DNA of 64,000 nucleotides from Escherichia phage A4, in the sequence record ON286972. The stretch is one strand, 5' to 3'. This document shows positions 4,548-56,715 of the stretch, piece after piece. Below the pieces are notes generated by a model, which was given only the letters and a program-made list of their open reading frames with translations, made no database searches and was not told where the DNA came from. The stretch's first letter is position 1, and each line of letters opens with the position of its first letter. Position numbers and translations under genes: made by a program.

Positions 4548-4576
4548 TTGACATTAAATGTGTTCATTGCTATAAT
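4548..4576 (+). promoter_or_regulatory. sigma70-type promoter (TTGACA-17-TATAAT)
   Basis: TTGACA 4548-4553, 17-bp spacer, TATAAT 4571-4576, ~30 bp upstream of ORF 4609. Confidence 0.55.
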
Positions 4577-23525: not shown

Positions 23526-23609
23526 TATTATTGAATATTGGTCTAAATGGGTCTAAAAAATCCACTTAGACCAATAAATACCCAATAATAACTAATTTAA
23601 GGATGGATT

Positions 23610-24239
23610 ATGGCTATTTCCTTTTACACCACAATGGAAGTTACTGGTGTTGTTAAATTCTCGAAAGCTGAATTTAAAAAACCAATATTAACATTTGATA
23701 CATCGTCTTTTAATATTATCAGAACACACGAAATTTCTGGTGCAGATAATCATTTAAGTAATTCAGTGATTACAACACTAGGAACAGATAGCAACCAATC
23801 GTTACAGATTGCTGCGTGGGCTGGGATGACAGAGACTAATAACGGTGTTAAAATACAAGCACGCACAACAAATGACACAAACAGTACTGAATGGGTTACA
23901 TTATATGATAGCTCCAACAGTACTGTGACAGTATTACCACAAGCTGATAGTTACGATATAGATACCAGTACTGGTAATAAAGTTTTTAATTTAACTCTAA
24001 ACAAACCAAACACTACAATTAATATCCTTCCTAATGCTAAAACTCAAGTATATGATTGCACTGTTATCATAGAACAAGGCACAGGTTCAAATCTTGTAAG
24101 CTGGAGTTCTAATGTGAAATGGTCATTCAATCGTCAAGTTCTTCTTTCATATGAACAATCCCAAAAAGATATAATTTCCCTAGAAACCTATGATGGTGGT
24201 ATTACATGGTACGGTGCTCTTATTCGAGCAGGGGTATAA
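23610..24239 (+). CDS. hypothetical protein (Ser/Thr/Asn-rich, possibly virion-associated)
   Basis: 209-aa ORF, composition like fibre proteins. Confidence 0.4.
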   Translation: MAISFYTTMEVTGVVKFSKAEFKKPILTFDTSSFNIIRTHEISGADNHLSNSVITTLGTDSNQSLQIAAWAGMTETNNGVKIQARTTNDTNSTEWVTLYDSSNSTVTVLPQADSYDIDTSTGNKVFNLTLNKPNTTINILPNAKTQVYDCTVIIEQGTGSNLVSWSSNVKWSFNRQVLLSYEQSQKDIISLETYDGGITWYGALIRAGV

Positions 24240-29677: not shown

Positions 29678-29679
29678 TT

Positions 29680-29707
29680 GGGACAATACTTTATATTGTG
29701 CTATAAT
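29680..29707 (+). promoter_or_regulatory. promoter (GGGACA-16-TGcTATAAT, extended -10)
   Basis: same AATTGGGACAA..TGnTATAAT architecture as promoter at 60668-60695. Confidence 0.45.
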
Positions 29708-29713
29708 TATATT

Positions 29714-30253
29714 GTAATGGAAAATGTCAGTGGACGTTTTAACAACGGACAAGAAGAACCTACTTCTCTTGAAAATGTAAAGGATAGATGAGCCTTCCCA
29801 CTGAGGCGATGAGCAAAAGAAACCCGTTAGTACCATCCAAGTGCATTCATACAAACGCGAAATAAGACACGGATCACACGGCGACACGGCTCAATAAAGA
29901 ACTCCGATAAGCATACAGAGAGTTCCTCGATAGATGTATAAGGATCGCACCTTACCAGATTTGCTAAGGGAGTTTTACTTAAAACAAGCGGTCAATTTTT
30001 CTACGGGAAAGTTGCACCCAAAATTTGAGTAAAACGAGTACTGAATTGATCGAATAGTTCCAGTACTTTAGTGCAGGGGATGAAAATACCTGCGACCGTT
30101 GCATATGACTGCGATAGAGAGAAACAGAGCAACCCGCTTTCGTTCTCCAAAAATTGGACACCCTTGATCCGTCCAAAATATGGAGAAATTCGCAATTCGA
30201 TAAATTCCGATGCCATCAGCGTCAAAATCAAGAACCTTAATTGGTTCTTTTTT
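29714..30253 (+). ncRNA. candidate ~540-nt non-coding transcript (unclassified)
   Basis: no ORF >60 aa with a ribosome-binding site; only short overlapping ORFs in several frames; bounded by promoter 29680-29707 and terminator 30230-30253; locally GC-richer. Confidence 0.3.
30230..30253 (+). terminator. rho-independent terminator
   Basis: AAGAACC-TTAATT-GGTTCTT then TTTTTT. Confidence 0.55.
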
Positions 30254-30397
30254 AATATCATTCCCCTGCGGGGGGATGAAAATGTCCTCAACAAATCCCG
30301 TCAATCTTTAAAAGTACAATACAATATTAATTAATATGAATGAGTGAGTTATCGTAGATAACGAAACGAATTCTTGAGTTACGAGAGAACGAAGTGA

Positions 30398-37643: not shown

Positions 37644-37976
37644 ATGCTAAATCTAGTTATTCAAGGTAATGTTGATATTACTCCAGCAATCCATGACGCA
37701 ATTCATCAAGAAGCAAACACTCTAAATAAATTTAGTGATTCTTCAGTACTGAATATTGGTGTTCATGTGAAAAAAGAGCATAAGACACAGTACGCAGTAA
37801 CTTTAACATCAGGTGGTAAGTCTGTTACTGCCGATGATGCAGATTTATACAAGGCGATTGTCGATTCATTCGAAAAAATGGAAACTGTATTCAGTAAAGA
37901 CAAAAGCATTAAATTGCACCGCCGAAACCATCCAGACCGTCCAGTTGTAGTTGATGTAACTGACGAAGAAGAGTAA
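37644..37976 (+). CDS. hypothetical protein
   Basis: 110-aa ORF, AAGGAAGGTGA ribosome-binding site. Confidence 0.45.
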   Translation: MLNLVIQGNVDITPAIHDAIHQEANTLNKFSDSSVLNIGVHVKKEHKTQYAVTLTSGGKSVTADDADLYKAIVDSFEKMETVFSKDKSIKLHRRNHPDRPVVVDVTDEEE

Positions 37977-37982
37977 TATAAT

Positions 37983-38012
37983 AAAGGGACAGATTAATTC
38001 TGTCCCTTTTCT
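37983..38012 (+). terminator. rho-independent terminator
   Basis: GGGACAG-loop-CTGTCCC then TTTT. Confidence 0.55.
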
Positions 38013-38027
38013 TATGGAGTTTTAATT

Positions 38028-38441
38028 ATGAATTATGCTTGGATGGAAATTGTAAAATCTCTCGTATCAACACATGATGTTGATTTACCAGATAGTCTAG
38101 TGTTTAATAGATGGTACTATCCAAATCCAGAGGACTGTAGGGTTGGAATTGGATTTTTTATTAATGATAAATCTAATTTGATTGGATTAATTGAAGATAT
38201 GAAATCCAACGCAGTATCAATCTCTATTGAGTTTAATGAAGACCACATAAAATACTACGACAATAAAATGGCAGAAGATGATGATGTTATAATCCCTGTA
38301 GATATAGACGAAGCTTCATTTTTTCAGTTATCATTGATTTATGATCTATCTAACATTACTTATGATAATGTGAAAGACCTTTTTATATTGTACAATAAAA
38401 TGTATAATTACTTTTTAAGACCTTTTTATATTGTACAATAA
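38028..38441 (+). CDS. hypothetical protein (C-terminus encoded by tandem repeat)
   Basis: 137-aa ORF; last ~20 codons lie inside the 43-bp tandem duplication. Confidence 0.4.
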   Translation: MNYAWMEIVKSLVSTHDVDLPDSLVFNRWYYPNPEDCRVGIGFFINDKSNLIGLIEDMKSNAVSISIEFNEDHIKYYDNKMAEDDDVIIPVDIDEASFFQLSLIYDLSNITYDNVKDLFILYNKMYNYFLRPFYIVQ

Positions 38442-38460
38442 AATGTATAATTACTTTTTA
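38375..38460 (+). repeat. perfect 43-bp tandem direct repeat (2 copies)
   Basis: AGACCTTTTTATATTGTACAATAAAATGTATAATTACTTTTTA at 38375-38417 and again at 38418-38460. Confidence 0.85.
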
Positions 38461-38476
38461 TAATGGAGGTATTGTA

Positions 38477-38662
38477 ATGGAATATACAATAGGTGCAATA
38501 GTATGTATCGCAGCATTATTAGGTGGCATTGGTGTGATGATTTACTTTGATGCAGAACCCAGTACTGAAATGGGTACAACCCTGGAACTCAAACCTGGCA
38601 TTAAGGTGAACGACTCTTACTGTTACGATCCACATAGTAATAAGTATGTGATTTGTTTATGA
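38477..38662 (+). CDS. small membrane protein
   Basis: N-terminal hydrophobic helix. Confidence 0.35.
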   Translation: MEYTIGAIVCIAALLGGIGVMIYFDAEPSTEMGTTLELKPGIKVNDSYCYDPHSNKYVICL

Positions 38663-39069
38663 AAAAGTTTAATATTAAACCGATATTTGATGCTATCGAA
38701 ATTAAATTGAAAGACCAACGAAAACCCGATGGTACTGGTTTATTCTTTAGTTTAGATAGAACCTACGTTGAAACACATGTATCAAGTTTTGATAGAACTG
38801 GTAATCTTTTCATCCGTTCATATAACATGTTTTATAGTGAAGATGTTTTTATGATAGATATCACTTTAGATGAAAGTATAGGTTTGATGTACATTGAAGA
38901 TGTTCAATCAAACGATCAACGAAACGGCACACTTCCTATTGGTGCTACCGAGGAAGAGTTTATGCAATATCAGTTCATTGATGATACCTTTGGTATTGAC
39001 TTTGTGACATATCAGAGTATAATGCGTGTATACGAACAGTATGAGGATTACGTAATTGGACGTTACTAA
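38653..39069 (+). CDS. hypothetical protein, paralog A
   Basis: C-terminal ..EEEFMQYQFIDDTFGIDFVTYQSIMRVYEQYE parallels next gene. Confidence 0.45.
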   Translation: MFMKKFNIKPIFDAIEIKLKDQRKPDGTGLFFSLDRTYVETHVSSFDRTGNLFIRSYNMFYSEDVFMIDITLDESIGLMYIEDVQSNDQRNGTLPIGATEEEFMQYQFIDDTFGIDFVTYQSIMRVYEQYEDYVIGRY

Positions 39070-39478
39070 AATACCCAAATTCAACGAAACGTTAAAGTAC
39101 TTTTCTGAACAAGAGTTCAGTACTGAAAGACGTGGTTTAGTCACATACAACCAATATCGCGTAATGTATACTAACCAGTTACAAGGAACAGTACGTATTA
39201 AAATCCGTAATGCATATGATGATGGTGATGAATTATTAATTATACTAAGAAAAAGTAAGATAGAACTACAATACCATAGATTTGATACTTCCGATGAGTT
39301 TGCATGGAATGTGTTAGAAAAGAAAGTAGGTTCATTGCCTGTAGTTGATGATGGACCTGAAACACTTGATCAGTACATGTTCATTGATGATACATTTAGT
39401 ATTGACTATTCTTCATTTCAGTATATACTATCTATACATAAACAATATGAATCCCGCTTGCGTGACAGATTAATTTAA
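39056..39478 (+). CDS. hypothetical protein, paralog B
   Basis: C-terminal ..LDQYMFIDDTFSIDYSSFQYILSIHKQYE parallels previous gene. Confidence 0.45.
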   Translation: MDVTKIPKFNETLKYFSEQEFSTERRGLVTYNQYRVMYTNQLQGTVRIKIRNAYDDGDELLIILRKSKIELQYHRFDTSDEFAWNVLEKKVGSLPVVDDGPETLDQYMFIDDTFSIDYSSFQYILSIHKQYESRLRDRLI

Positions 39479-39489
39479 TTGGAGGCTTT

Positions 39490-39612
39490 ATGATTGCAAT
39501 GTTAGAAGAAGATTGGGGTGTTTCTGAACAAGGAACCGACGAATATCAAGTTCCAGAATACAAGCCAAAAGGCTTCTGGGAAAGTCTGCGTGATTGGTTG
39601 ATGGGAGAATAA
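39490..39612 (+). CDS. small hypothetical protein (40 aa)
   Basis: GGAGG 5 nt upstream; below track cutoff. Confidence 0.2.
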   Translation: MIAMLEEDWGVSEQGTDEYQVPEYKPKGFWESLRDWLMGE

Positions 39613-39621
39613 GATTAGAAA

Positions 39622-40689
39622 ATGTATAAATTTTATTTTAATGAAAATAACGAGAAGGTATATTTCCATGAAGAATTAGGTATGCGTTTCGAATGGATGC
39701 GTCCCGAAGATTTATCACCAAAATTAATTAAAACATCAAAAACACCTAAAGAACATTTTGATGAAATAATAGAAAAAGGATATAATATTTTAGGATTTGC
39801 TATAACATCAAGTGATGAATGGAAATCTAGTTTTACAAGAACTGTTGTTGAAAAAGATGGTATTATATATACAAAAAGAAATATAAATGATATAAAAACG
39901 AAAGGTATGAAATATATCATTGGGAAATATGACAATGAAAATTATAGATATTATCTTTATAAGACTTCAAAAAGTCTAATGACTGGTGAATGTGAATTAC
40001 TTTTAGAACAACCAATAATTAAAGATAAAAGAACCAAATTAACTTATAAATGCTTAAAATGTGGTCACGTTGATGAAATGGAAATTAGTAATATACAAAG
40101 TGGTCAGGGTTGCTCTATTTGTCGATTTGAAAAAACCAGATTAGCACACGCATTCACCACCGCTGAATTTGTTGAACGAGCAAAAGAAATTCATGGTAAT
40201 GTATATAACTATTCAAAAGTCATCTACATTAATAGTAGCACTCATGTTGAAATAATTTGTAAAAAACATAATAATTCTTTTTATATCATTCCAAATTTTC
40301 ATATAGCAAAAAATAAAAATCAAGGTTGCCCAATATGCTCATCTGAACATACTGAATCCAGAGCTAGTAGAGAAATAACACGTTTTTTAATTGAAAATGG
40401 TATAAAATTTAATAAAGAACAAACATTTAGTGACTGTAAAAATAAAATGTTATTAAGATTTGATTTTTATTTGGTTGATTATGATATTTGTATTGAGTAT
40501 GATGGTAAACAACATTTTGAGAAATCACCTCATTGGGGTGGAGAAGATAAATTGAAAAACATCAAGGATAACGATACTATAAAGACACAATATTGTGAAA
40601 AGAATTTTATTAAATTAATACGTGTAACATATTATGAAGACCACTTAACTGTATTAAAAAAACATCTTTCAGAGGAAGGTATATTATGA
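39622..40689 (+). CDS. Zn-ribbon protein with C-terminal endonuclease-like domain (possible free-standing homing endonuclease)
   Basis: multiple CxxC pairs; C-terminal RFDFYLVDYDICIEYDGKQHF resembles PD-(D/E)xK/DUF559-type motif; gene markedly more AT-rich than neighbours. Confidence 0.35.
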   Translation: MYKFYFNENNEKVYFHEELGMRFEWMRPEDLSPKLIKTSKTPKEHFDEIIEKGYNILGFAITSSDEWKSSFTRTVVEKDGIIYTKRNINDIKTKGMKYIIGKYDNENYRYYLYKTSKSLMTGECELLLEQPIIKDKRTKLTYKCLKCGHVDEMEISNIQSGQGCSICRFEKTRLAHAFTTAEFVERAKEIHGNVYNYSKVIYINSSTHVEIICKKHNNSFYIIPNFHIAKNKNQGCPICSSEHTESRASREITRFLIENGIKFNKEQTFSDCKNKMLLRFDFYLVDYDICIEYDGKQHFEKSPHWGGEDKLKNIKDNDTIKTQYCEKNFIKLIRVTYYEDHLTVLKKHLSEEGIL

Positions 40690-43617: not shown

Positions 43618-43636
43618 ACAAAAGGACTTGACAAAA

Positions 43637-43945
43637 ATGACTATTACCGTTAAACTACTAAACATCAACAACGTTGGCCCAGTACTAGCAGTTCTACAAA
43701 CCGATGCTCCAGAAGCAGTAGTAGTTAACTACCCAGCACAGCTAGGTACTGACGAAAAAGGTGAAATCATTCTACGTGATTATCTAGAATTTATTAGTTC
43801 AGAAAAAGGTGTTATTTTCTTCAAATCTAACATCATCAGTATCAGTGATGCAAACCCTGCACTGGTTGATGCTTATGTTGAAGCAATTAAGACTCTAGAA
43901 GATAAGCCAGCGTTGATTGTCCCTGACAACAAAATCATCCTATAA
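43637..43945 (+). CDS. hypothetical protein
   Basis: start set at ATG 43637 (MTITVKLL); track ORF from 43487 overlaps previous gene. Confidence 0.45.
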   Translation: MTITVKLLNINNVGPVLAVLQTDAPEAVVVNYPAQLGTDEKGEIILRDYLEFISSEKGVIFFKSNIISISDANPALVDAYVEAIKTLEDKPALIVPDNKIIL

Positions 43946-43957
43946 TAGAGGTATAAA

Positions 43958-54278: not shown

Positions 54279-55751
54279 ATGCTTAAATTATTCAGTACTG
54301 AAAGTACGGTAGTTCCTAATGGGTATATCTATACTTCCCATACTGGAGCAAAATATGTCTTCTTAGAAGGTATGTGGTTCAATGATAGTAATATGATGAT
54401 GGTTGATCCACAAAAATATCCAAATATGTATGCTTGTGCTCGACAACAAATTGTTGAGCACAACAATAAATCAAACACTGCATTTAAAATTGGCGAAAAC
54501 TATCTTCACAATGGAAAAGAGTGTACGTTCATCGGTGAAAGCCGCTTCCATAGTGATGACGGTACTATTCTTTCTGAAAGTGAAGTGATTACAGAACTAA
54601 TGGGTGATGAACAACGTGTATATCAAGTTTCCAAAGAAACTCTACAAAAAGAGTGGAGTACTTTGAAATTTTATATTCTACCCCCACATGCACAAGATAT
54701 TTCTATCCCAGCAGGTATGGTAGTTCAAGGATATAAGTTTATTCCTAACAGTCATCGCTTTGTTGAACTAAAAAGCGGTCGCCCTGTAAGCCCAGAAATG
54801 ACACGTAAACTAAGTGAAGAAGGTCTTCGCATTGCTCGCCAATTATCTACAAACAATAAACTAATCCCATTGAAATCTGTATTGATTCAAGGTAATGTTC
54901 GTTCTGAATGGAACGGTAAAGAATTTTGCGATAATGACGGTAATGTGGTAGTATCTGAACAAGGCTCGAAAGCTATTTTCCAAGCATATTCACAGTTCGT
55001 TAAGGCAAATCCTGAAGATTTTCCTTCTTTAACTGGTGCTAGTACTGGTGAAGAACAACGTTTTGGTTCTGTACCGAAGCCAGAAAAAGTTACCGAAGCT
55101 GAAGATGAACCAGCAGTTGGTGTACCAGATGGATACCGTTTTACTTCTGGTAAAAACAAAACTTATGCTAAACAACGTGGTGCTTGGTTTGATGTTGAAA
55201 CTAAAAAACAACTAAATTCAGGTGCTGCACAAAGTATTGAGCGTGCTGCACAACAAGCTATTCTTAAACATAACGAATCCGGTGCAATGAAAATCGGAAC
55301 AAAAGTTACTTCTAAGAAAGGCAAAGAATATGTATACGTTGGTGGTGATCGATTCATTGGTCCAGATGGTAAAATGATTCCAAAAAGTGCTGCACAAGCT
55401 ATTCTGGATCGTTTTGAATCTTCTAAATCAGAGAATGAACCTAAACCAAATGACGCACCACAAGAAGAACCAAAAGCACAAGAAGAACCTAAACCTGAAG
55501 CACAGGCTGAACCGAAAGAAGAACCAAAGGAAGAGCCTAAACCAGAACCGACCCCTGAACCAGAAGTTGAGCAAGGGAATGGTATGGAAGCACTTGCATC
55601 ACAAATTAAATCTTCTCCTTATGCGAAAAAGATTACAGTACTGCTAACCCGTGGTGATAAGGTTTCTTTACTAGCCGCTGACATTCTATTAGCTGGTAAT
55701 AAAGATGAAGTAGTGCAGATTTTAAAATCATTAAATAATAATGATGAATAA
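54279..55751 (+). CDS. hypothetical protein with internal duplicated segments and EPK-rich linker
   Basis: 490 aa; recurring G.KY.F.EG / KIGTKVTSKKGKEYVYVGGDRF-like blocks. Confidence 0.45.
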   Translation: MLKLFSTESTVVPNGYIYTSHTGAKYVFLEGMWFNDSNMMMVDPQKYPNMYACARQQIVEHNNKSNTAFKIGENYLHNGKECTFIGESRFHSDDGTILSESEVITELMGDEQRVYQVSKETLQKEWSTLKFYILPPHAQDISIPAGMVVQGYKFIPNSHRFVELKSGRPVSPEMTRKLSEEGLRIARQLSTNNKLIPLKSVLIQGNVRSEWNGKEFCDNDGNVVVSEQGSKAIFQAYSQFVKANPEDFPSLTGASTGEEQRFGSVPKPEKVTEAEDEPAVGVPDGYRFTSGKNKTYAKQRGAWFDVETKKQLNSGAAQSIERAAQQAILKHNESGAMKIGTKVTSKKGKEYVYVGGDRFIGPDGKMIPKSAAQAILDRFESSKSENEPKPNDAPQEEPKAQEEPKPEAQAEPKEEPKEEPKPEPTPEPEVEQGNGMEALASQIKSSPYAKKITVLLTRGDKVSLLAADILLAGNKDEVVQILKSLNNNDE

Positions 55752-55764
55752 CTAAAAGGATTTA

Positions 55765-56715
55765 TTGAAAATGGCAAAAAAAATTAATGAAGCACAGGTT
55801 AAAATTGATATTGCTGGTCTAGAATCTGATGATCTAGAAGCACTATCCCGTATGCTTGCACTAGCTGGTCAAGCTGAAAAGCAATCATCCGTAGCACCTA
55901 CTGTTTCTCCAATCGCTCCACTTGACTTCGGTTCTTTTGGTGGTTCAGCGGAAGAACCAGAAGTTGTTGCTCCAGAAATGGGTGCTGATGTAGCACCTGT
56001 TCCAGAAATTGGTGAAGAAGACCCACTAGCACAAGCTGTTGATGATCTATCTGGTTCAGTAACTGATTTCGGTGCTGATGCAGAAGGTGAAGCTGACATT
56101 CCAGTTATCGATGTTGAAGCTCCTGGTGAAGAAGATGAACTTTCTCTTGACATGAGTGGTCAACCTAAGCTAGAATCTACTCTATCAGATGAAGACGAAG
56201 AAGTTATTGAAGAAGAATTCGATTTCGGTCGTATGATGTCTCTAGCTGGTCTTCCTGTTACTGAAGCAGTAGATGAAGATGAAGAAGAAATTGAAGAAGA
56301 AGTTACTGAATCTCAAATCCTTCCTGACCTAAGTCTAGAAGAAGAGAGTCCAGCACTTGACACAACTGATTTTGGTCCTTTCCGTTCTGAATACGATGCT
56401 GTTCAAGATGGTCAAGCTAAAACCAATGGTGTTGAAGGTGATAACTTCATCGTAGTTCCTAAAGGAAACCAATTCTACTGGAGACGTGTTGTTCAAGAAG
56501 AACTTGACAATGTTCCAAATCCAGAAGAATATGATAATGAAGGCAATGTACATCGTGTACATGAATTCAAGCCAAAAGCACCTGGTACTGCTCTAGGTGA
56601 TAACCCACTTAATGTTTACGAAGCTGAAGAAGAAGAGTCTGAAGAAGACGAATCTGTAGAAGACATTTTTGAAAGTCTCCAAAGTAAGTACAATAAGTTT
56701 CTAGGAGATAAGTAA
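55765..56715 (+). CDS. highly acidic protein
   Basis: 316 aa, Asp/Glu-rich. Confidence 0.45.
   Translation: MKMAKKINEAQVKIDIAGLESDDLEALSRMLALAGQAEKQSSVAPTVSPIAPLDFGSFGGSAEEPEVVAPEMGADVAPVPEIGEEDPLAQAVDDLSGSVTDFGADAEGEADIPVIDVEAPGEEDELSLDMSGQPKLESTLSDEDEEVIEEEFDFGRMMSLAGLPVTEAVDEDEEEIEEEVTESQILPDLSLEEESPALDTTDFGPFRSEYDAVQDGQAKTNGVEGDNFIVVPKGNQFYWRRVVQEELDNVPNPEEYDNEGNVHRVHEFKPKAPGTALGDNPLNVYEAEEEESEEDESVEDIFESLQSKYNKFLGDK

What the first reader, a model, noticed from the sequence alone, without database searches (positions are those of the whole stretch)
38375..38460. Perfect 43-bp tandem duplication forming the 3' end of a gene
Two identical back-to-back copies of AGACCTTTTTATATTGTACAATAAAATGTATAATTACTTTTTA. 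The ORF 38028-38441 reads through copy 1 into copy 2, so its last residues come from the duplication. Zero divergence implies a very recent event or a slippage hot spot, and the repeat includes a TATAAT that could serve the downstream gene.
Basis: seen in the sequence. Interest (0 to 1): 0.45.

Follow-up and report, generated by a model that had tools for sequence, protein, structure and literature searches.

The report
Inherited 43-bp duplication at gene end
A perfect back-to-back 43-base duplication that adds seven residues to a small jumbo-phage protein of unknown function is real, but it is an inherited allele shared by at least 12 other phage sequences, with no sign of being a promoter.

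Summary
There are two perfect 43-bp copies at 38374-38459 (87 nt of periodicity), and ORF 38028-38441 ends inside copy 2. The window is Escherichia phage A4, an Asteriusvirus-like jumbo phage.

The duplication is neither an assembly artefact nor private to this genome. The same junction occurs in 12 other sequences from other phages (BF17, vB_Ec-M-J, WPEC5, EC.P1, five phage contigs in E. coli assemblies, two metagenome contigs, one Logan contig) plus a second assembly of A4. About 30 other relatives have one copy and end the protein at ...YNYFL*.

Because 43 = 3x14+1, copy 2 is read in the +1 frame. This adds RPFYIVQ and moves the stop 25 nt upstream of the next gene's ribosome-binding site.

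The duplication sits on four ORF backgrounds and at least six downstream contexts. The 160-nt block that contains it is the longest perfect match between A4 and BF17 in 64 kb, so it spreads by homologous recombination. It also decays: point changes, a 12-nt deletion, and possible collapse to one copy.

The promoter idea is weak. The best -35 match is 3/6, TATAAT is simply the codons M-Y-N, and it occurs 71 times on this strand.

An ordinary polymorphism with a modest open question about selection.

The parts
38374..38416 (+). Copy 1 of the 43-bp unit AAGACCTTTTTATATTGTACAATAAAATGTATAATTACTTTTT. It encodes the last 14 codons of the ancestral ORF (K-D-L-F-I-L-Y-N-K-M-Y-N-Y-F and the first two bases of L).
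   Evidence: Single-copy relatives end ...YNYFL* directly after this unit.
38417..38459 (+). Copy 2, identical to copy 1. Its first 25 nt are read in the +1 frame (last base of L130, then RPFYIVQ, then the stop). Its last 18 nt are untranslated.
38028..38441 (+). ORF A4_530 (137 aa), a hypothetical protein of family phrog_36582. The family profile ends at residue 130, so residues 131-137 are the add-on from the duplication.
38439..38441 (+). New stop codon TAA, formed by CAATAA of copy 2 read in the shifted frame.
38461..38463 (+). Relic of the ancestral stop codon (TTA TAA after the unit). It is now downstream of the new stop and is not used.
   Evidence: Comparison with the single-copy relatives UE-S1, slurp01 and PBECO4.
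38403..38408 (+). TATAAT in copy 1. It is the codons (A)TG-TAT-AAT, M-Y-N. The best -35 match is 3/6 (TTTTTA).
   Evidence: Not listed by the promoter scan.
38446..38451 (+). TATAAT in copy 2, with the same poor -35. It is deleted in the SRR30543657 relative.
38386..38397 (.). 12-bp perfect palindrome TATTGTACAATA in copy 1, with a second one at 38429-38440 in copy 2. It is not conserved in JNE01 or Turkey5, so it is probably incidental to the codons I-L-Y-N.
38304..38463 (+). 160-nt block 100% identical to phage BF17. It is the longest perfect match between the window and the syntenic 72 kb of BF17, and a probable recombination patch carrying the duplication.
38465..38469 (+). GGAGG ribosome-binding site of the downstream gene. 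It lies 1 nt after the ancestral stop and 23 nt after the new stop.
38477..38662 (+). Downstream 61-aa ORF (phrog_4189). It has a hydrophobic N-terminus and is probably a small membrane protein.
37983..38009 (.). GC-rich hairpin terminator between the HPF gene and ORF A4_530. It is annotated as a terminator in UE-S1 and G17.

Best explanation
This is a genuine, heritable 43-bp tandem duplication of the 3' end of a conserved gene of unknown function (A4_530, phrog_36582) in Escherichia phage A4.

Origin (inferred). It most likely arose once, by an illegitimate replication or recombination slip, because the junction shares only 1 nt of microhomology.

Effect on the protein (shown). Because 43 = 3x14+1, the ribosome leaves copy 1 and reads copy 2 in the +1 frame. 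This replaces the ancestral ...YNYFL-stop by ...YNYFL-RPFYIVQ-stop. It leaves 18 nt of copy 2 plus the old stop as untranslated spacer before the GGAGG of the next gene.

Spread and decay (shown by comparison). The allele circulates among Asteriusvirus-like jumbo phages. The 43-bp unit and the ORF's conserved 3' end give enough homology for crossovers, so the duplication has been moved onto several upstream and downstream haplotypes. It decays by point changes, small deletions and, probably, collapse to one copy.

Function (inferred). The duplication is most likely neutral or nearly so. It is not a promoter, terminator, RNA structure or mobile cassette.
For: Repeat and reading frame.

Ancestral single-copy state ending ...YNYFL*:
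- About 30 of 34 database relatives.
- The family profile ends at residue 130.

Same junction elsewhere:
- BF17, vB_Ec-M-J, WPEC5 and EC.P1.
- GCA_011911785, GCA_025677605, GCA_012813795, GCA_036253495, GCA_973721985, ERZ27302919 and ERZ28616714.
- Partly, Logan SRR30543657, which has a truncated copy 2.
- ERZ14213602, a separate assembly identical to the window over 5.4 kb.

The window is phage A4, sequenced at 98x coverage.

Mosaicism:
- The duplication lies on four ORF backgrounds that are at most 90% identical to each other. There are 10 distinct 40-nt downstream sequences among 13 alleles, against 2 distinct versions of copy 1 and 4 of copy 2.
- fEgEco12 and TH47 are recombinants around or inside the ORF.
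- 38304-38463 is the longest perfect match to BF17 in 64 kb; the aligned 52 kb averages 78% identity.

Decay:
- EC.P1 copy 1 has A>G.
- ERZ28616714 copy 2 has T>G, giving RPFYIGQ.
- WPEC5 and EC.P1 lose the last 2 nt of copy 2.
- SRR30543657 has a 12-nt deletion in copy 2.
- Single-copy Logan contigs have 0 substitutions over 5.4 kb and over 1.47 kb against duplication-bearing partners.

No regulatory signature.
Against: - The 160-nt block shows zero differences between phages that differ by about 15-20% around it. Uniform-rate arithmetic gives 0.856^160, about 1e-11. Nine of 13 alleles have a mostly non-coding copy 2 that is identical to copy 1. Both facts could also reflect selection or gene conversion rather than recent neutral exchange.
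- The origin mechanism cannot be reconstructed from a 1-nt microhomology.
- Both apparent collapses to one copy come from one assembler, Logan at k=31. Its graph branches at a perfect duplication.
- No reads, transcripts or proteomics were available.
Confidence: 0.72

Rival explanations
1. The duplication is a positively selected allele. Doubling the element changes expression of the downstream small membrane-protein operon, through tandem weak promoters or a change in spacing and translational coupling. Alternatively, the RPFYIVQ tail changes the protein. The allele has therefore swept across phage lineages by recombination.
For: - The duplication block is the longest perfect match between A4 and BF17 in 64 kb.
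- It is found on four ORF backgrounds and at least six downstream contexts, including a phage only about 80% identical to the others.
- Copy 2 is mostly non-coding, yet unchanged in 9 of 13 alleles, while the 40 nt after it are highly variable.
- The stop-to-RBS distance changes from 1 nt to 23 nt.
Against: - The -35 match is 3/6 and the site fails the promoter scan.
- TATAAT is common, at 71 occurrences on the + strand.
- The phage's consensus promoter sequences are perfect and intergenic.
- SRR30543657 has lost the copy-2 TATAAT yet keeps the 137-aa ORF.
- TH47 carries TACAAT.
- 160 = 117+43, and a 116-nt perfect run also exists elsewhere.
- About 30 relatives have only one copy.
Confidence: 0.15
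2. The site is a duplication/contraction hot spot. The 43-bp duplication arises and collapses recurrently, so copy number varies within populations, in effect a contingency-type switch of the C-terminus.
For: - One-copy and two-copy versions occur in otherwise identical sequence. SRR9693738 versus GCA_011911785 shows 0 substitutions in 5.4 kb. ERR10789687 versus GCA_973721985 shows 0 in 1.47 kb.
- ERZ28616714 (two copies) is 99% identical to TH47 (one copy) upstream of the unit.
Against: - The junction is identical in all alleles with only 1 nt of microhomology, so repeated de novo gain at exactly the same bases is improbable.
- Three of the four backgrounds share the same linked 3' signature, which points to a single origin.
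- No three-copy allele was seen.
- Both clean one-copy cases come from Logan contigs, which cannot represent a perfect duplication.
Confidence: 0.08
3. The second copy is an assembly artefact of this genome.
For: None found. This is only the general fact that short tandem repeats can be mis-assembled.
Against: - The 87-nt array is shorter than an Illumina read.
- The identical array is present in 13 further sequences from different laboratories and pipelines, including a separate assembly of the same phage.
Confidence: 0.02

Closest known systems
Short tandem duplications and indels generated by illegitimate recombination or replication slippage in T4-type phages. These are unstable and segregate by homologous recombination (my own knowledge of the classical T4 rII duplication literature, not checked here).
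   Same: A perfect head-to-tail duplication with almost no junction homology. It is inherited, spread by recombination, and apparently lost by collapse between the copies.
   Different: It is very short, at 43 bp. It sits exactly on a gene's 3' end and so remodels the C-terminus. It has persisted long enough to be shared by phages of different species-level lineages.
PeSL (promoter-early stem-loop) mobile regulatory cassettes of T4-type phages (Arbiol et al. 2010, recalled from memory).
   Same: An AT-rich unit of about 40 bp with a palindrome next to a TATAAT, located at a boundary where gene content differs between relatives. WPEC5, EC.P1 and fEgEco12 have a 2-gene insertion starting at the end of the unit.
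   Different: - It is not dispersed: only these two copies occur in 64 kb.
- There is no copy at the far side of the insertion.
- There is no usable -35.
- The palindrome is not conserved in JNE01 or Turkey5.
- The unit is coding sequence.
Tandem sigma-70 promoters
   Same: Two perfect TATAAT hexamers 43 nt apart, upstream of a gene with a strong RBS.
   Different: The -35 match is 3/6 at every allowed spacing. The phage's consensus promoter sequences are perfect TTGACA-N16/17-TATAAT sites in intergenic gaps. The hexamer is explained by the codons M-Y-N.
Repeat-mediated phase variation (contingency loci)
   Same: A change in copy number shifts the reading frame at the gene's end and changes the protein tail. 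Both states are seen on near-identical backgrounds.
   Different: The unit is 43 nt and there are only one or two copies. There is no array and no plausible fast route from one copy back to two. The evidence for variation comes from one assembler only.

Membership tests
Perfect tandem duplication (real sequence feature) | Two adjacent identical copies, far beyond chance | tested here: met
   TRF score 174 with 100% matches. 0 matches expected in shuffles.
Perfect tandem duplication (real sequence feature) | Reproducible in independent assemblies or isolates | tested here: met
   13 further sequences carry the same junction.
Sigma-70 promoter | -10 hexamer close to TATAAT | tested here: met
   TATAAT at 38403 and 38446. 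There are 71 such hexamers on this strand.
Sigma-70 promoter | -35 hexamer close to TTGACA at 16-18 nt, or an extended -10 TGn | tested here: not met
   The best -35 match is 3/6 (TTTTTA). TG abuts the hexamer without the spacer base. The site is not reported by the scan.
Sigma-70 promoter | Transcription start mapped downstream of the -10 | not testable with these tools
   No transcript data were available for this phage group.
Intrinsic terminator or structured RNA | Stable stem-loop beyond composition, followed by a U-run for a terminator | tested here: not met
   MFE -20.9 kcal/mol, z = -1.1 against shuffles. The single-copy relative gives z = -1.0. No terminator is called at this position.
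PeSL-like mobile regulatory cassette | Many dispersed copies flanking variable ORFs | tested here: not met
   Only the two tandem copies occur in 64 kb at up to 3 mismatches. There is no copy flanking the 2-gene insertion in WPEC5.
Contingency (phase-variable) repeat locus | Copy number varies between near-identical genomes | tested here: inconclusive
   Two pairs differ only by the 43-nt indel. The one-copy members are Logan k=31 contigs, and a perfect duplication creates a branching loop at k=31.
Contingency (phase-variable) repeat locus | Array of several units allowing reversible gain and loss | tested here: not met
   There are never more than two copies in the 14 duplication-bearing sequences.
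Target-site duplication of a mobile element | Inserted element between the two copies | tested here: not met
   The copies are directly adjacent.

The most novel reading that the evidence does not exclude
The roughly 160-nt block carrying the duplication is a positively selected allele. It has recently swept by homologous recombination across jumbo-phage lineages that are only about 80% identical. The driver would be either the seven-residue tail or the 43-nt respacing and duplication in front of the small membrane-protein gene, giving an infection advantage.
Probability: 0.15. Interest if true: 0.45.

Novelty: new member of a known kind. Interest (0 to 1): 0.22.

Why it matters
Mostly as a correction. 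Perfect repeat identity does not imply a recent, private event or an artefact here. The allele is widespread and moves between genomes.

It is a clean small example of how a non-multiple-of-three tandem duplication rewrites a protein C-terminus. It also shows how a short conserved gene end acts as a crossover point in jumbo-phage mosaicism.

It could serve as a lineage and recombination marker for Asteriusvirus-like phages. It is also a caution for k-mer assemblers, because a k=31 graph cannot cross the perfect repeat.

If the allele proved to be selected, it would point to a function for an entirely uncharacterised gene pair.

Tried and rejected
- **RNA structure or terminator.** Folding 38360-38490 gave z = -1.1, and the single-copy relative gave z = -1.0. 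Rejected.
- **Dispersed regulatory motif or PeSL-like cassette.** The unit occurs nowhere else in the window. It does not flank the 2-gene insertion of WPEC5. Rejected.
- **Known Rak2-like promoter motifs from the CBB paper** (TGAAACG...TATA, ATAAATA). None occur at the repeat.
- **Microhomology-mediated origin via the CTTTTTATA 9-mers at both ends of the unit.** These are 32 nt apart, not 43, so they cannot give this junction (read). Rejected.
- **IMG/VR, metagenome and GTDB scans**. These found only 121Q itself, one single-copy metagenome contig, and unrelated Clostridia/hare contigs that share a 24-nt string.
- **E. coli complete genomes and plasmids.** No match.
- **AlphaFold2 of the ORF.** Mean pLDDT was 49, too poor for a fold search, so none was run.
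- **Pfam.** No family for the ORF or its neighbours.
- **Literature.** I found no description of this repeat and no promoter mapping for the genus.

Full report
**1. Observation**

The window holds a perfect tandem array at 38374-38460: period 43, 2.0 copies, 100% matches, TRF score 174. It is the only long perfect array in 64 kb. A 23-nt core of the unit occurs only at these two positions, with none expected by chance. Periodicity extends only one base beyond two full units, so the junction (…CTTTTT|AAGACC…) has 1 nt of microhomology (read). ORF 38028-38441 (137 aa) reads through copy 1 into copy 2 and ends …YNYFLRPFYIVQ*.

**2. Which genome this is**

- The ORF product is 100% identical to hypothetical protein A4_530 (USL83606.1) of Escherichia phage A4. 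This is a 355,528-bp Rak2-like jumbo phage sequenced at 98x (PMC9355613).
- A4 is only about 81-82% identical over 21 kb to every deposited Asteriusvirus.
- The local gene order is LysM-lysozyme, an HPF/RaiA ribosome-hibernation homologue, a terminator hairpin, this ORF (phrog_36582, function unknown), a 61-aa ORF (phrog_4189), and two paralogous 136-140-aa ORFs (phrog_20693).
- Almost all genes are on the + strand.

**3. Ancestral state and the direct consequence of the duplication**

About 30 of the 34 database phages that have this gene carry one copy of the unit. In those phages the ORF ends …TAC TTT TTA TAA, that is …YNYFL*. The PHROG profile also ends at residue 130 of the A4 protein.

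The unit covers the last 14 codons minus the final base of the Leu codon. Because 43 = 3x14+1, copy 2 is translated in the +1 frame. This gives RPFYIVQ and a new TAA at 38439-38441. The remaining 18 nt of copy 2 and the old stop (38461-38463) become untranslated spacer. The distance from the stop to the GGAGG of the next gene (38465-38469) grows from 1 nt to 23 nt. These steps follow directly from the sequence.

**4. Not an artefact and not private to A4**

The identical duplication junction is present in these sequences:

- Phage isolates: BF17 (Poland), vB_Ec-M-J, WPEC5 (Thailand) and EC.P1 (China).
- Five roughly 350-kb phage contigs deposited within E. coli assemblies: GCA_011911785, GCA_025677605, GCA_012813795, GCA_036253495 and GCA_973721985.
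- Metagenome contigs ERZ27302919 and ERZ28616714.
- A second assembly identical to A4 over 5.4 kb (ERZ14213602).
- A Logan contig (SRR30543657), with a truncated copy 2.

Lytic phage genomes inside bacterial assemblies are a described phenomenon (PMC12768965, listed). The array is 87 nt, shorter than a read. An assembly artefact is therefore very unlikely.

**5. The copies are not always identical**

Among 13 non-redundant duplication alleles, copy 1 has 2 versions and copy 2 has 4:

- EC.P1 copy 1 carries A>G.
- ERZ28616714 copy 2 carries T>G, giving RPFYIGQ.
- WPEC5 and EC.P1 lose the last 2 nt of copy 2, at the junction with a 2-gene insertion.
- SRR30543657 has a 12-nt deletion that removes the copy-2 TATAAT but keeps the 137-aa ORF.
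- vB_Ec-M-J has one extra T after copy 2.

So the duplication is old enough to have started to decay. 'Zero divergence' is a property of A4, not of the allele.

**6. Mosaic distribution**

- Upstream of the unit, the duplication sits on four ORF backgrounds that are at most 90% identical to one another: A4-type, GCA_973721985-type, BF17-type and a TH47-like type.
- Downstream, the 40 nt after copy 2 have 10 distinct versions among 13 alleles. One of these contexts is the 2-gene insertion shared with the single-copy phage fEgEco12.
- fEgEco12 has BF17-type lysozyme and HPF genes and the insertion-type downstream region, but a slurp01-type single-copy ORF. TH47 switches allele type inside the ORF.
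- Recombination in and around this gene is therefore demonstrated.
- Between A4 and BF17 the last mismatch is at 38303. The 160-nt perfect run 38304-38463 is the longest in the whole window against 72 kb of syntenic BF17. The next longest runs are 116 and 75 nt, and mean identity of the aligned 52 kb is 78%.
- At the local 85.6% identity, a uniform-rate expectation for 160 identical bases is about 1e-11 (my arithmetic).
- Two caveats apply. First, 160 = 117+43, so the repeat inflates the run. Second, the C-terminal 40 residues are the most conserved part of the protein.
- The same 70 nt upstream of the unit differ at 5 positions between duplication-type and slurp01-type alleles. Constraint alone therefore does not explain the identity, and recent exchange of the block is the simplest reading (inference).

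**7. Copy-number change**

Two Logan contigs carry one copy in sequence otherwise identical to two-copy genomes. SRR9693738 versus GCA_011911785 shows 0 substitutions in 5.4 kb. ERR10789687 versus GCA_973721985 shows 0 substitutions over 1.47 kb around the locus. This would fit collapse by recombination between the copies.

However, none of the three Logan contigs shows the full duplication, whereas all 13 non-Logan duplication-type sequences do. A k=31 de Bruijn graph of the perfect duplication has two branching nodes. The one-copy and SRR30543657-type alleles have none. Logan contigs that cross the locus are therefore either an ascertainment-biased sample of real non-perfect alleles or the result of loop removal. 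I treat collapse as likely but unproven.

**8. Function tests**

*Promoter*
- The unit's TATAAT is the codons M-Y-N.
- TATAAT occurs 71 times on the + strand of this 35.6% GC window.
- The best -35 match is 3/6 at spacings of 16-18 nt, and the scan does not list the site.
- By contrast, the window has perfect TTGACA-N16/17-TATAAT sites in intergenic gaps at 4548, 20258, 57530 and 57623.
- TH47 has a synonymous TAC (TACAAT), and the 12-bp palindrome is lost in JNE01 and Turkey5 through amino-acid changes.
- The promoter motifs predicted for related Rak2-like phages (PMC5259590) are absent at the repeat.

*Other readings*
- RNA structure is not significant (z = -1.1).
- The unit is not dispersed, and no copy flanks the variable insertion.
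- The structure prediction of the protein was too poor to use (pLDDT 49). It places residues 131-137 after a C-terminal helix, at low confidence.

**9. Verdict**

This is a real, inherited, recombinationally mobile and slowly decaying 43-bp tandem duplication. It lengthens a conserved protein of unknown function by seven residues and respaces the junction with the next gene. The kind of event is well known, although I found no description of this instance in the papers I searched.

The one open point is whether the unusually long perfect block, and the conservation of the mostly non-coding copy 2, reflect selection rather than recent neutral exchange. I put that at about 15%.

Noticed in passing
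window 39622-40689 (+): A 355-aa HNH/homing-endonuclease-like ORF (phrog_559, E = 9e-51; treble-clef zinc finger DUF4379). It is inserted between a 40-aa ORF and the CCA tRNA nucleotidyltransferase gene, which starts at 40686. It is absent at this position in BF17, UE-S1, slurp01, PBECO4, GCA_011911785 and others. GCA_012813795 has a different 208-aa ORF there. This looks like a free-standing homing endonuclease polymorphism.
   Followed up: partly
window 38653-39069 and 39056-39478 (+): Two adjacent paralogous ORFs (both phrog_20693) share a 72-nt stretch at 74% identity. The ORF carrying the duplication aligns only weakly with their C-terminal halves (25-27% identity). In WPEC5, EC.P1, fEgEco12 and JNE01 an extra 2-gene module is inserted right after the 43-bp unit. 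Its 41-aa ORF is a paralogue of window 39490-39612. This region grows by gene-level duplication.
   Followed up: partly
window 37644-37976 (+) and 37983-38009: A phage-encoded HPF/RaiA ribosome-hibernation-factor homologue (PF02482, E = 4e-10). It is followed by an 11-bp-stem, GC-rich hairpin that reads as a terminator on both strands.
   Followed up: no
window 4548, 20258, 57530, 57623 (+): Four perfect sigma-70 consensus promoter sequences (TTGACA-N16/17-TATAAT). Each lies in an intergenic gap just upstream of a + strand ORF. They are probably host-RNA-polymerase early promoters of this phage.
   Followed up: partly
L014 5900-5940 (European hare metagenome) and L018 2327-2350 (Clostridia MAG from rabbit): Unrelated bacterial contigs share the 24-nt string TTGTACAATAAACTGTATAATTAC with the single-copy phage allele. 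In the hare contig (L014, the only one read) it is part of a perfect 16-bp palindrome TTTATTGTACAATAAA abutting a TATAAT, downstream of a TTGACA. This looks like an operator overlapping a promoter. It is probably coincidence.
   Followed up: no
window 55459-55551 and 56263-56664 (+): Imperfect in-frame tandem repeats (periods 12, 15, 18 and 24; 64-94% matches). They are rich in GAA/AAG/CCA codons and lie inside ORFs 54279-55751 and 55765-56715. These are low-complexity acidic/lysine-rich repeat regions in two adjacent proteins.
   Followed up: no
window 23526-24189, 29678-30397 and 43618-43957: Gaps of 340-720 nt without a long + strand ORF in an otherwise tightly packed region. Two of them hold only short - strand ORFs. 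No tRNA genes were found anywhere in the window.
   Followed up: no
L009 (Salmonella phage SD-1_S14) about 3106 onward: In the Salmonella SD-series records the sequence directly after the single unit jumps into the middle of the 61-aa gene, and later into a paralogue. This suggests deletions or mis-assemblies in these 310-326-kb records.
   Followed up: no
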